A stretch of 64,000 bases of DNA from Escherichia coli (GTDB lineage Bacteria > Pseudomonadota > Gammaproteobacteria > Enterobacterales > Enterobacteriaceae). Every line of letters begins with the position of its first letter. Position 1 is the stretch's first letter. The notes beneath the pieces were generated by a model. The model searched no databases. It worked only from the letters and a program-made list of their open reading frames with translations, and was not told the origin of the DNA. The stretch is from the NCBI RefSeq assembly GCF_001677475.2, contig NZ_CP015229.1. One strand, written 5' to 3'. Of the stretch, positions 58,428-60,228 are shown piece after piece. The translations under genes and the position numbers were made by a program.

Positions 58428-59018
58428 ATGTGTGGACGTTTTGCACAAGCCCAAACCCGTGAAGAATACCTGGCATACCTGGCCGATGAGGCTGATCGCG
58501 ATATCGCATACGACCCGGAGCCTATTGGCCGGTACAACGTGGCGCCCGGTACCAAAGTTCTGCTCCTGAACGAACGCGACGAGCAGCTGCACCTCGATCC
58601 GGTTCTGTGGTCGTACGCGCCCGGGTGGTGGGATAAGCAGCCGCTGATTAACGCGCGCGTCGAGACGGCGGCCACTAGCCGCATGTTCAAACCTCTCTGG
58701 CAGCATGGCCGGGCGATCTGTTTTGCAGATGGGTGGTTCGAATGGAAGAAGGAAGGCGAAAAGAAACAGCCCTACTTCATTATCAACCCGGTCACTGGTA
58801 AGCCGGTCTCGGGTAATAACAAAGGCAGTATGTTGCTCATCTGGCGACCATTCCCGCGGGCAAACTGCCACTTCGCAACAGTGGAGAGGGATGAGTTGAT
58901 GACATTCGGAGCGAAACTTCTCGCCCGGTGGGAGGCCGCATATGGATTAAAGTACACCTCTGGTAATCCATGTATAATTAGATACCAGAGGAGCTTTGAA
59001 CCAAAAAAATATTATTAA
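58428..59018 (+). pseudogene. Truncated paralog of yedK (SRAP N-terminal region fused to unrelated C-terminal sequence)
   Basis: 196-aa ORF; first ~117 aa closely match YedK, remainder unrelated; upstream ~45 bp also resembles the yedK upstream region. Confidence 0.65.
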
Positions 59019-59812
59019 TTTCTATGTCTATAGGAGCCTCCAAGTCTAAATCCAAAAGTATATCTTTTAATATTATCAAACAAAAAAGCCTGCTCGTTAT
59101 TAAATATATTCAATTGAGACAGCTTTTCCATGAATGTTTTTGTCTCATCCATAAACTTCTCTGCAAATGAAGGATGTTTTAGCGCTTCAAAGAGTGTTGC
59201 GGAAAAATTTGTTTTTGCAAACATAGAGGCGCTTTGTAATTTATTTTGCCACTTAACTAAATAGTCATCACCTTCATTGTTTAATATTTCTTGGCTTGGC
59301 AGAACCAGTGCTGTTCCATGTGCTATAGCGTTCCGAAGGTGGAACATAGCAGTGAACGCATTTTTATCGGACATCATATCTTCAACCTTCAAGCCAGTAT
59401 AATCTTTAATCGCCTTTTTAAGATTATCCCAGCTCCCATTTGCTTCTAACTCTATATGCAAATTGAAAATCTTGTTATACGATCGAAAAATAGTTCTTGC
59501 GTTTTCTTTATTTGGTTCCGTTGCTGCAAGTTCCCCCATTGCATGGTGATCTTTCGATACAGCAGCGGTGAAAACCTGCCTCAAAATACCTTCAACAATC
59601 GCAGCATTCAGACTTATTAACGTGAGATTTCTGAATATGTTCTCATCTTTTAAAACTATTGTTTCTTTTGGGTTGCCATAGCGATCAAGTTGATCATAAT
59701 CCTTGTCTATTGCACCATTTTTAATCTTAATCGCAATTTCTTCGTATTGCTGAAGTAAATAAACATTAGTATTAAATATGTTAAATGAAGTTATCCTCGG
59801 AACAATTTCCAT
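59015..59812 (-). CDS. Hypothetical protein with a HEPN-type Rx4H motif; candidate abortive-infection/toxin RNase
   Basis: AT-rich ORF (272 aa from first ATG at 59833; 265 aa from ATG at 59812, which has a GAGGGG Shine-Dalgarno sequence); motif FHLRNAIAHG at residues 165-174 of the 272-aa numbering. Confidence 0.5.
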   Translation of the reverse strand: MEIVPRITSFNIFNTNVYLLQQYEEIAIKIKNGAIDKDYDQLDRYGNPKETIVLKDENIFRNLTLISLNAAIVEGILRQVFTAAVSKDHHAMGELAATEPNKENARTIFRSYNKIFNLHIELEANGSWDNLKKAIKDYTGLKVEDMMSDKNAFTAMFHLRNAIAHGTALVLPSQEILNNEGDDYLVKWQNKLQSASMFAKTNFSATLFEALKHPSFAEKFMDETKTFMEKLSQLNIFNNEQAFLFDNIKRYTFGFRLGGSYRHRN

Positions 59813-60015
59813 TGTCACACCCCTCGATTTCATTAAATCCTGATATGAGAAGCTATGGTATCAACAAATGTGAAAAAATCTAGTTAGAACCCAGAAAAAT
59901 GCTTAATAGGCCATTTAAGCAACGTCTTAATACTTATCGAATACTTGGAGATGTAGCAGAACCCCGGAGGTATTAAGCGGAGAATTCTACGCGCTATGCG
60001 TGCGACATGAGGAGG

Positions 60016-60228
60016 TTAAGCAATCATTCCGAAATGCTTCATCGCTTGCTCGATGAAAGTAACGTAATTAACAGGGCATTCATACACTTTTGAGTCAGGA
60101 GAGATACGGTTCGGCGCCTTCTTCATCTTGAACCCATGCATGTGCTTAACATGAGCGATATGGCATGTCTTAACACTGACACCATGGTTAGCTTTGACGT
60201 ATTCCTGGATCTGCTTATAGGTAGCCAT
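60016..60228 (-). CDS. Hypothetical small protein (70 aa)
   Basis: ORF track gives 77 aa from a GTG; AGGAG Shine-Dalgarno sequence sits 7 nt before the internal ATG (MATYKQIQEYVK...), taken as the start. Confidence 0.5.
   Translation of the reverse strand: MATYKQIQEYVKANHGVSVKTCHIAHVKHMHGFKMKKAPNRISPDSKVYECPVNYVTFIEQAMKHFGMIA

What the first reader, a model, noticed from the sequence alone, without database searches (positions are those of the whole stretch)
59015..60228. AT-rich HEPN-motif protein with an adjacent 70-aa protein: candidate defence or toxin module carried on an integrase-associated islet
The larger ORF is markedly AT-rich compared with the flanking core genes and sits about 1.1 kb from a xis-int module. 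It contains FHLRNAIAHG, which fits the R-x4-6-H signature of HEPN RNase domains found in many abortive-infection and toxin proteins. It has no recognisable similarity to any K-12 protein I can recall. A 70-aa basic protein with its own strong Shine-Dalgarno sequence lies 180 bp upstream on the same strand and could be a regulator, antitoxin or partner. A single motif is weak evidence, so the function is a hypothesis.
Basis: partly seen in the sequence, partly recalled or inferred. Interest (0 to 1): 0.72.

Follow-up and report, generated by a model that had tools for sequence, protein, structure and literature searches.

The report
Solo HEPN gene in prophage remnant
The AT-rich gene is a real member of a small, untested family of HEPN (RNA-cutting) proteins that travels alone as an accessory gene of lambda-like prophages; it is most likely a one-protein anti-phage suicide switch, and the neighbouring 70-aa gene is not its partner.

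Summary
There is an AT-rich ORF (34.6% GC against 50% for the window) with FHLRNAIAHG, a 70-aa basic ORF 182 bp upstream on the same strand, and a xis-int pair nearby. The likely start is the second ATG (59812), giving 265 aa, so the motif residues become R160 and H165.

The HEPN reading is supported:
- R160, N161, H165 and E74 are invariant in 38 homologues.
- There are weak Pfam RiboL-PSP-HEPN and PADLOC RT-associated-HEPN matches.
- In a pLDDT 91.5 model, the only long PDB superpositions are HEPN domains.

The "two-gene module" reading is not supported. HEPN homologues in Klebsiella, Citrobacter, Pantoea, Serratia and Proteus lack orf70. Orf70 homologues in Enterobacter prophages lack the HEPN gene.

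The "islet" is a remnant of a lambda-like prophage at fliE, about 5.3 kb including a later IS3 insertion. It is bracketed by 41-bp exact repeats. In all five intact prophage contexts examined, the gene is a lone insert on the strand opposite to the phage operons.

Best explanation: a self-sufficient prophage-encoded abortive-infection RNase, analogous to HepS and Tha but not detectably related to HepS by sequence. Function is inferred, not shown. I rate it a new member of a known kind, of moderate interest.

The parts
59015..59812 (-). Gene for the 265-aa stand-alone HEPN-family protein (30.5 kDa, pI 6.7). The mechanical ORF extends to 59833, but homologues support the ATG at 59812.
   Evidence: length and start; family alignment; model pLDDT 91.5, pTM 0.87; dN/dS 0.05-0.16.
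59318..59335 (-). Codons for R160-N161-A-I-A-H165, the Rx4H HEPN catalytic-type motif. G166 and T167 follow.
   Evidence: Read from the sequence. R160, N161, H165 and G166 are invariant in 38 homologues. PADLOC RTasHEPN match over residues 128-174, E=3.8e-8.
59579..59593 (-). Codons for E74...R78 in the long first core helix (NAAIxEGxLR). E74 is invariant and R78 nearly so. This is probably the second conserved polar patch of the HEPN active site (inference).
   Evidence: conservation; helix 57-98.
59813..59997 (-). Upstream leader and presumed own promoter region of the HEPN cassette. About 87 bp are conserved with the Klebsiella aerogenes cassette at blastn level, and the MAFFT alignment extends further. 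No consensus sigma-70 site was found.
   Evidence: conservation; no promoter-like site on the - strand; no tandem repeats.
60016..60228 (-). orf70: a conserved 70-aa basic phage protein of unknown function (phrog_27283). It is an independent module (59998-60292), not a conserved partner of the HEPN gene.
60343..60591 (+). orf82: a small CxxC...CxxC (zinc-ribbon-like) protein in the early-left transcription direction. It matches no known family.
   Evidence: The same gene is present in the identical islets.
60641..60886 (+). Excisionase (xis; DUF1233 / phrog_539).
   Evidence: E=1.9e-37; PF06806.
60932..62233 (+). Intact 433-aa tyrosine integrase (Arm-DNA-bind_2 + Phage_integrase), convergent with fliE.
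   Evidence: It is 49% identical to the integrase of the Pantoea prophage that carries a HEPN homologue, also next to fliE.
58428..59018 (+). Chimeric ORF with a SRAP/YedK-like N-terminus (residues 1-128) fused to the C-terminus of a phage Dam methyltransferase. It is a probable deletion scar marking where the rest of the prophage was lost.
57033..58259 (-). IS3-family insertion sequence inside the remnant. It is absent from otherwise 99.6-99.9% identical loci.
56904..56944 (+). Left copy of a 41-bp exact direct repeat, lying in a stub of an older integrase 3' end. Probable att core.
62165..62205 (+). Right copy of the 41-bp exact direct repeat, lying in the 3' end of the intact int gene. Probable att core.

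Best explanation
The gene encodes a stand-alone HEPN-superfamily protein from a small, uncharacterised family. The nearest Pfam model is RiboL-PSP-HEPN. The family spreads as a single-gene cassette, so far seen mostly as an accessory gene ('moron') on the strand opposite to the operons of lambda-like prophages of Enterobacterales.

In this window it survives in a remnant of such a prophage integrated next to fliE. The remnant is about 5.3 kb including a later IS3 insertion, and its gene order is int, xis, orf82, orf70, HEPN, a truncated dam.

The most likely mechanism rests on the family's anatomy and on characterised solo HEPN proteins. The protein is made in the lysogen from its own promoter. 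It sits as an inactive homo-oligomer. A cue from an infecting phage switches it on. It then cuts cellular RNA through a composite R160/N161/H165 site formed between subunits, tRNA anticodon loops being the commonest target in analogues. This stops translation and aborts the infection.

Shown here: the gene is real, HEPN motif and fold, solo status, prophage-moron context.
Inferred: expression, oligomeric control, RNase activity, target, trigger, defence phenotype.
For: HEPN identity:
- R160, N161, H165, G166 and E74 are invariant in 38 homologues.
- Pfam HEPN_RiboL-PSP scores E=0.0018 for this protein, E<=1e-3 for 8 of 38 members and E<=0.1 for 19 of 38. No competing family appears.
- PADLOC RTasHEPN scores E=3.8e-8 over the motif helix.
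- The AFDB structural neighbours are family members labelled RiboL-PSP-, MAE_28990- or ApeA-like HEPN.

Real gene: dN/dS is 0.05-0.16.

Solo cassette: in five independent prophage contexts the gene is alone on the strand opposite to its neighbours, in three different slots. These are between int/xis and dam/recT (Klebsiella, Citrobacter, Pantoea), between P and nin/Q (Serratia), and between Q and the lysis genes (Proteus). There is no conserved neighbour and no repeat-RNA antitoxin or Rfam element.

Defence association: neighbours of non-prophage homologues match PADLOC candidate defence families. These are PDC-S15 (1.6e-60), PDC-S57 and LmuB/mad3-like. One Vibrio homologue lies in a cassette array with a ParE/Phd pair.

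Oligomer hint: a linker-fused tandem dimer model keeps pTM 0.83 and gains new strands at 10-13 and 169-172 in both copies.

Precedents: HepS, a solo HEPN abortive-infection tRNase on the Gifsy-1 prophage (PMC13043305). Tha, a HEPN defence in S. aureus prophages (PMC11087260). DARNA/PD-T7-3 and ApeA, single-protein HEPN tRNases (bioRxiv 10.64898/2026.02.22.705581).
Against: There is no functional evidence of any kind, and every family member is annotated 'hypothetical' or 'HEPN domain-containing'.

The Pfam hit for the window protein itself is below the usual significance level.

No sigma-70-like promoter was detected upstream. An AT-rich gene in Escherichia may be silenced.

The tandem-dimer pTM is an indirect proxy from a 12-sequence alignment, and no coordinates could be inspected.

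The defence-neighbour sample is tiny (four contexts).

How a constitutively made RNase would be kept harmless, and how the parent prophage would avoid self-targeting, is unknown.
Confidence: 0.55

Rival explanations
1. The HEPN protein and the upstream 70-aa basic protein form a two-gene toxin-antitoxin or defence operon, with orf70 as antitoxin, regulator or partner.
For: The two genes share a strand, lie 182-203 bp apart and each has a good Shine-Dalgarno. Many HEPN toxins have small partners, and Tha has the small inhibitor Ith beside it (PMC11087260). The pair is kept together in all copies of this particular islet.
Against: orf70 is absent next to all HEPN homologues examined in other genera. 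Orf70 homologues occur without the HEPN gene at the same int-proximal position in Enterobacter prophages. The DNA homology blocks end between the two genes. Ith-type inhibitors are transcribed antisense, in the lytic direction, whereas orf70 is co-directional. orf70 matches no antitoxin or HTH family.
Confidence: 0.08
2. The HEPN protein is a defence or toxin effector held in check by a different, fast-evolving phage-encoded inhibitor transcribed in the lytic (early-left) direction, as Ith does for Tha. Candidates are orf82 or another small gene between xis and the cassette. In this remnant that control may be vestigial.
For: In the int-proximal loci there is always at least one small ORF on the opposite strand between xis and the HEPN gene. 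These are orf82 here, a 79-aa Zn-ribbon protein in Pantoea, and 62-81-aa ORFs in Citrobacter. The Tha/Ith precedent places exactly such a gene, once mis-annotated as xis, beside a prophage HEPN gene.
Against: These small ORFs are not detectably homologous between loci. The Serratia and Proteus homologues sit in quite different slots with other neighbours. HepS needs no inhibitor (PMC13043305).
Confidence: 0.12
3. The protein serves the phage or host in some way other than defence. Possibilities are RNA processing or host shut-off during the lytic cycle, a lysogenic-conversion or virulence function, or plain addiction of the element.
For: HEPN domains also act in RNA processing and in toxin-antitoxin addiction (PMC3710099). 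The slots it occupies also carry non-defence morons. Examples are the Q-lysis slot and the AT-rich LRR effector-like gene nearby.
Against: The gene faces against the lytic operons in all five prophage contexts, which argues for expression in the lysogen rather than in the lytic programme. Non-prophage homologues sit beside candidate defence genes. There is no signal peptide or secretion context.
Confidence: 0.15
4. In this genome the gene is inert baggage: an unexpressed or silenced leftover of a decayed prophage with no current function.
For: The prophage is about 90% deleted, and an IS3 has landed in the remnant. No promoter-like site was found. At 35% GC the gene is a typical target for silencing of foreign DNA (general knowledge, not tested).
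Against: The ORF is full length with all invariant residues intact. It is 99-100% identical to copies in other assemblies. The family is under strong purifying selection.
Confidence: 0.1

Closest known systems
HepS (HEPN Solo defence element, STM14_3211, Gifsy-1 prophage of Salmonella Typhimurium; PMC13043305)
   Same: Both are single HEPN-domain proteins with an Rx4H motif, encoded alone with no partner gene in an accessory slot of a lambda-like prophage of Enterobacterales. HepS is constitutively made, held as an inactive oligomer, triggered by a phage protein, and acts as an anticodon nuclease.
   Different: There is no detectable sequence relationship. The family profile finds nothing in PDB sequences at E<=10, although the HepS entry 9OIK is in that copy. 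Foldseek against PDB finds nothing either. HepS has its motif at R100-H105, and the authors restricted HepS homologues to at most 250 aa. This protein is 265 aa, has its motif at 160-165, and has an N-terminal helix plus beta-hairpin and a C-terminal helical extension. Trigger and target are unknown here.
Tha/Ith (tail-activated HEPN anti-phage system of S. aureus prophages; PMC11087260)
   Same: Both are prophage-encoded HEPN effectors located right next to int and a small 'xis-like' gene and expressed in the lysogen. Tha is predicted to be a dimer with R/H in a cleft.
   Different: Tha is paired with a dedicated antisense inhibitor gene (ith) in a noncontiguous operon. No conserved small partner exists here. 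The Tha HEPN domain is C-terminal (R265/H270) behind a 167-residue N-terminal region. The host phylum differs, and sequence similarity to Tha was not tested.
Pfam PF18735 HEPN_RiboL-PSP, with the related MAE_28990 and ApeA-like HEPN families
   Same: It is the best and essentially only Pfam match. AFDB family members carry these labels. It shares the RNxxxH motif and helical core.
   Different: The match is weak: E=0.0018 for this protein, and only 8 of 38 members reach 1e-3. PADLOC's ApeA, PD-T7-3 and PD-T4-2 models do not match at E<=0.1. The family looks like an unmodelled sister group rather than a clear member.
RT-associated HEPN of DRT/Abi reverse-transcriptase defence systems (PADLOC PDLC03820; AbiA HEPN domain, PDB 8oz7)
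   Different: No reverse transcriptase gene is adjacent in any locus. The match covers only 46 residues.
HEPN-MNT (HepT/MntA) type II/VII toxin-antitoxin pairs
   Different: There is no nucleotidyltransferase antitoxin gene nearby. This protein is twice the size of HepT toxins, and no sequence match was found.

Membership tests
HEPN superfamily | Conserved R-x4-6-H motif, usually with a polar residue (N/H/D/Q) after the R, at the end of a core helix | tested here: met
   LRNAIAHG: R160, N161, H165 and G166 are invariant in 38 homologues down to 20% identity. The motif lies at the end of helix 150-163.
HEPN superfamily | All-alpha up-and-down helical bundle core | tested here: inconclusive
HEPN superfamily | Significant match to a HEPN profile | tested here: met
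   PADLOC RTasHEPN scores E=3.8e-8. Pfam HEPN_RiboL-PSP scores 0.0018 for this protein, with a best member at 1.2e-6; 8 of 38 members reach <=1e-3.
HEPN superfamily | Dimerisation that forms a composite active site | tested here: inconclusive
   The linker-fused tandem model keeps pTM 0.83 and gains new strands at 10-13 and 169-172 in both copies. No coordinates or PAE could be inspected.
HEPN superfamily | Metal-independent endoribonuclease activity | not testable with these tools
   Needs biochemistry.
HepS family | Sequence or profile homology to STM14_3211 | tested here: not met
   The family profile against PDB sequences gives zero hits at E<=10, and 9OIK (HepS with the J peptide) is in that copy. 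The tblastn search of 50,697 phage records gave no match.
HepS family | Solo HEPN gene, without a partner, in an accessory slot of a lambda-like prophage | tested here: met
Tha/Ith | Conserved small antisense inhibitor gene adjacent to the HEPN gene | tested here: not met
   There is no conserved neighbour across loci. orf70 is co-directional and separable from the HEPN gene.
Type III toxin-antitoxin (AbiF/ToxIN-like, RNA antitoxin) | Tandem repeat array encoding the antitoxin RNA upstream of the toxin gene | tested here: not met
   No tandem repeats were found in 58800-60700 at score >=30. No short direct repeats were found upstream here. The homologous loci have only scattered short direct-repeat pairs with no conserved array. 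No Rfam match was found.
HEPN-MNT toxin-antitoxin | Adjacent minimal nucleotidyltransferase antitoxin gene | tested here: not met
   No such ORF or Pfam/NCBIfam hit occurs among the neighbours.
DRT / Abi reverse-transcriptase systems | Reverse transcriptase gene fused or adjacent to the HEPN domain | tested here: not met
   No RT is present in the window region or in any homologous locus.
ApeA, PD-T7-3 (DARNA), PD-T4-2 and other PADLOC v2 single-gene HEPN systems | Match to the system's profile HMM | tested here: not met
   RTasHEPN is the only PADLOC family at E<=0.1.
Lambda-like prophage moron | Discrete insert with its own flanks, opposite or independent orientation, deviant base composition, and variable position among related phages | tested here: met
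   GC is 0.346 against about 0.50-0.54. The gene is on the opposite strand in five of five prophage contexts and in three different slots. Homology to the Klebsiella aerogenes locus spans 58787-59899 and stops about 87 bp upstream of the start codon. At the downstream end it runs on into the syntenic dam 3' fragment, so only the upstream edge of the cassette is delimited.

The most novel reading that the evidence does not exclude
This family is a previously unrecognised, self-sufficient HEPN sensor-effector. Its family-specific N-terminal hairpin and C-terminal helical extension would sense a phage cue different from those of HepS, Tha, ApeA or DARNA. It moves as a promoter-bearing single-gene cassette between different slots of lambda-like prophages, integron-like cassette arrays and defence islands across Gammaproteobacteria.
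Probability: 0.4. Interest if true: 0.55.

Novelty: new member of a known kind. Interest (0 to 1): 0.38.

Why it matters
If it is confirmed as a defence gene, it would add a compact (265 aa), rare family to the short list of one-protein HEPN abortive-infection systems. The family has about 46 clusters at 50% identity among 1.84 billion representatives.

Its trigger would be a new case for the open question of how solo HEPN RNases sense infection and how their own prophage avoids self-killing.

The locus also shows an anti-phage-type gene outliving its phage. Almost everything except int, xis and the accessory genes has been deleted.

The concept itself is already established by HepS and Tha, so the gain is incremental.

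Tried and rejected
- Near and distant DNA searches of the region against 5,426 complete E. coli genomes found no match. No annotated E. coli reference could therefore be used.
- tblastn of the HEPN protein against 50,697 phage records found no match.
- The family profile against PDB sequences gave nothing at E<=10, and Foldseek against PDB gave nothing significant.
- I tried to obtain the HepS sequence for a direct profile comparison. LT2 Gifsy-1 (NC_010392) has no ORF with R100/H105 in the expected slot, and the paper's supplements are not held. I fell back on showing that 9OIK is in the PDB copy already searched.
- NCBIfam gave no hit for the HEPN protein, orf82 or xis, and only insignificant hits for orf70. 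Pfam gave nothing for orf70.
- The search for an RNA antitoxin or any known RNA was negative: no tandem repeats, only scattered short direct or inverted repeats, and no Rfam match.
- The promoter scan found no sigma-70-like site upstream of either gene on the - strand, so the promoter remains unidentified.
- I considered and rejected orf70 as partner, a HEPN-MNT pair, a DRT system, a type III toxin-antitoxin system, and an integron-cassette HEPN of the 3JRT type (no PDB sequence hit).
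Full report
**1. What is in the sequence**

The window region is Escherichia chromosome. Its flanks are 95-97% identical to E. coli yedL, the LRR gene, the integrase and fliE/fliF. A full-length yedK/SRAP gene lies just upstream of that query, at 54113-54781.

The large ORF runs 59015..59833 on the minus strand (272 aa) and contains FHLRNAIAHG, with R167 and H172 in that numbering. All close homologues are 265-267 aa and begin at the equivalent of the second ATG (59812). 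That ATG is preceded by GAGGGG. I therefore take the gene as 59015..59812, 265 aa, with the motif at R160/H165.

Its GC content is 0.346 (GC3 0.312). The window average is 0.499, and int, fliE and yedK are 0.53-0.54.

The 70-aa ORF is at 60016..60228 on the minus strand. It has pI 9.6 and a strong Shine-Dalgarno. An excisionase (60641..60886; phrog_539, E=1.9e-37) and an intact 433-aa tyrosine integrase (60932..62233) follow on the plus strand. fliE lies immediately beyond.

**2. The protein is a real HEPN-family member**

An exhaustive HMMER search of 1.84 billion representatives found only 46 relatives at E<=0.001. Nearly all are 200-270 aa.

In an alignment of 38 of them (20-88% identical), the invariant residues are E74, R160, N161, H165 and G166. 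N69, A70, G75, R78, G126, T167, P172 and W188 are nearly invariant. R-N-x3-H is the canonical HEPN catalytic signature.

- **Pfam:** HEPN_RiboL-PSP is the only meaningful family. It scores E=0.0018 for this protein, with a best member at 1.2e-6. Eight of 38 members reach <=1e-3 and 19 of 38 reach <=0.1.
- **PADLOC:** there is a local match to the RT-associated HEPN model (E=3.8e-8, residues 128-174) and to nothing else.
- **Structure model:** AlphaFold2 with the family alignment gives a confident model (pLDDT 91.5, pTM 0.87). It consists of an N-terminal helix and beta-hairpin (15-52), a long helical core (57-163) ending in the motif, a loop, and four or five further helices.
- **Foldseek against AFDB50:** it returns an identical E. 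coli protein (A0AAI9FFD7, uncharacterised). The other hits are family members labelled RiboL-PSP-, MAE_28990- or ApeA-like HEPN.
- **Negative searches:** Foldseek against PDB, and the family profile against PDB sequences, return nothing.
- **Selection:** pairwise dN/dS among the Escherichia, Klebsiella, Citrobacter and Pantoea genes is 0.05-0.16.

I conclude that the HEPN assignment is sound at superfamily level. The structural evidence alone would be only suggestive.

**3. The gene's setting is a deleted lambda-like prophage**

Close homologues (59-88% identity) occur in Klebsiella aerogenes, Citrobacter freundii and Pantoea agglomerans. In each, the gene lies in a full lambda-like prophage, between int/xis and the end of the early-left operon (dam, exo/recT, gam, kil, then the CI-like repressor, cro-like gene, O and P). 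It is on the strand opposite to that operon. The Pantoea prophage is also integrated next to fliE and has a 49%-identical integrase.

More distant homologues (about 40% identity) are found in two other slots:
- In Serratia marcescens the gene lies between replication gene P and the nin/Q region.
- In Proteus mirabilis it lies between Q and the lysis genes.

In both it is again alone and on the opposite strand.

In the window, the ORF convergent with the HEPN gene (58428..59018) is a chimera. A SRAP/YedK-like N-terminus (residues 1-128) is joined to the C-terminus of a phage Dam methylase. This looks like the scar of the deletion that removed the rest of the phage.

A 41-bp exact direct repeat occurs at 56904-56944 and 62165-62205, with none expected by chance. 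It lies within 79%-identical copies of the integrase 3' end and brackets the remnant. These repeats are probably the att cores.

An IS3-family element (57033-58259) has since inserted. It is missing from otherwise 99.6-99.9% identical copies of the locus in three E. coli draft assemblies and a metagenome. No complete RefSeq E. coli genome (5,426) carries the HEPN region.

**4. orf70 is not a partner**

- tblastn finds no orf70 in the Klebsiella, Citrobacter or Pantoea loci. The ORFs upstream of the HEPN gene differ in every locus.
- orf70 belongs to a much commoner family (phrog_27283, E=5e-21; 43 clusters).
- 83%-identical copies lie next to int/xis, on the strand opposite to the early-left operon, in Enterobacter hormaechei prophages that have no HEPN gene.
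- DNA homology shows two separate blocks. Block 58787-59899 matches Klebsiella (the HEPN cassette with about 87 bp of upstream DNA). Block 59998-60292 matches Enterobacter (the orf70 module).

The two genes are adjacent mosaic modules, and their function is unlinked as far as conservation can tell.

No repeat-RNA antitoxin, Rfam element, nucleotidyltransferase or reverse transcriptase is present.

**5. How it most likely works**

Shown here: the gene is a conserved, stand-alone HEPN protein carried as a strand-inverted, AT-rich accessory cassette of temperate phages.

Inferred: it is expressed in the lysogen and acts as a self-contained abortive-infection RNase. Three lines lead there.

- **Position and orientation.** They are those of lysogen-expressed morons. 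Three non-prophage homologues have neighbours that match PADLOC candidate defence families: PDC-S15 at 1.6e-60, PDC-S57, and LmuB/mad3-like. A Vibrio vulnificus homologue sits in a one-directional cassette array with a ParE/Phd pair.
- **Invariance of R, N, H and E74.** This argues for catalysis rather than a degenerate binding domain.
- **Close functional precedents.**
  - HepS is a solo HEPN protein in an accessory slot of Gifsy-1. It is an inactive tetramer, is opened by the tail-tip protein J, and then cleaves tRNA anticodon loops (PMC13043305).
  - Tha is a HEPN effector next to int in S. aureus prophages. It is triggered by tail proteins and held in check by the small antisense-encoded Ith (PMC11087260).
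  - DARNA/PD-T7-3 and ApeA are single-protein HEPN tRNases with oligomeric control (bioRxiv 10.64898/2026.02.22.705581).

A linker-fused tandem model of this protein keeps pTM 0.83 and gains short strands at residues 10-13 and 169-172 in both copies. That is consistent with a specific homodimer close to the motif. I could not inspect the coordinates, so this is only a hint.

The trigger, the RNA target and the way the parent phage avoids self-targeting are unknown. No sigma-70-like promoter was detected.

**6. Comparison with known systems and novelty**

The protein works like HepS in every feature I could test (solo, prophage accessory slot, Rx4H). It is not a HepS family member. The family profile finds no PDB sequence at E<=10, although the HepS entry 9OIK is in that copy.

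It also lacks the defining feature of each of these:
- Tha/Ith (a conserved antisense inhibitor gene)
- HEPN-MNT pairs
- type III toxin-antitoxin systems
- DRT systems
- the PADLOC single-gene HEPN systems

Databases already label some members "HEPN domain-containing". None has a name or a tested function.

I rate it a new member of a known kind: an uncharacterised family of solo prophage HEPN proteins. Interest is moderate at 0.38. It is a good, cheap experimental candidate but not a conceptual surprise after HepS and Tha.

My confidence is about 0.9 that it is a HEPN-family prophage moron. It is about 0.55 that it is a self-sufficient anti-phage abortive-infection RNase, and about 0.3 that its target is tRNA.

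Noticed in passing
window 56904-56944 and 62165-62205 (within 56818-57040 and 62079-62300): A 41-bp exact direct repeat lies inside 79%-identical copies of an integrase 3' end. The left copy also continues into a stub resembling the 3' end of fliE. This suggests serial integration of related phages at an att site overlapping the int 3' end and fliE 3' end, which would explain the K-12 'intG' fragment (the K-12 link is from my own knowledge).
   Followed up: partly
window 58428-59018 (+): A chimeric 196-aa ORF joins a SRAP/YedK-like N-terminus to a phage Dam methyltransferase C-terminus. The SRAP part is 78% identical at nucleotide level to the chromosomal yedK at 54113-54781. Gene callers annotate it as one gene in other assemblies. 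It is probably a deletion junction, and it implies that the lost phage carried its own SRAP gene.
   Followed up: partly
window 57033-58259 (-): An IS3-family element (OrfA 57920-58204, OrfB 57051-57863) is inserted in the prophage remnant. It is absent from otherwise 99.6-99.9% identical loci in E. coli draft assemblies, so the insertion is recent.
   Followed up: yes
window 55513-56631 (-): An intact, AT-rich (35.6% GC) 372-aa leucine-rich-repeat protein (DUF5503) lies here. Its LRR region resembles the type III effectors SspH2, SlrP and GogB, but it lacks their ligase domain. It appears to be the intact form of the yedN pseudogene of K-12 (my own knowledge).
   Followed up: no
window 59998-60292; loci L021-L024: orf70 (phrog_27283) is a widespread 70-aa basic protein. 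In Enterobacter hormaechei prophages it sits right beside int/xis, on the strand opposite to the early-left operon, whichever of three integrase types is present. Its function is unknown. The UniRef label 'RNA methyltransferase' on some members has no support from Pfam or NCBIfam.
   Followed up: partly
window 58900-60400: This region has no DNA match in 5,426 complete RefSeq E. coli genomes, yet an identical islet exists in a few draft or third-party E. coli assemblies and in metagenomes. In one metagenome contig (L020), the genes beyond the SRAP-Dam end (a GH116-family glycosidase, FKBP and an alpha-2-macroglobulin-like gene) differ from the yedN/yedL/yedK side seen here.
   Followed up: partly
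window 60600-60619 (+): A terminator-like hairpin (AGCCGCC...GGCGGTT followed by a T-run) lies between orf82 and xis on the strand of the early-left operon.
   Followed up: no
L013 (Vibrio vulnificus contig), 7001-7777: A 33%-identical family member lies in a long array of small same-strand ORFs that includes a ParE/Phd pair and acetyltransferases. The array looks like a chromosomal integron cassette array. attC sites were not checked.
   Followed up: no
L001/L002 (Klebsiella aerogenes prophage), 15251-16180 and 20202 onward: The same prophage that carries the HEPN homologue also carries a gene with a BstA C-terminal domain next to its repressor, and a DndB-domain gene after the replication genes. 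Several defence-type accessory genes therefore share one phage.
   Followed up: no
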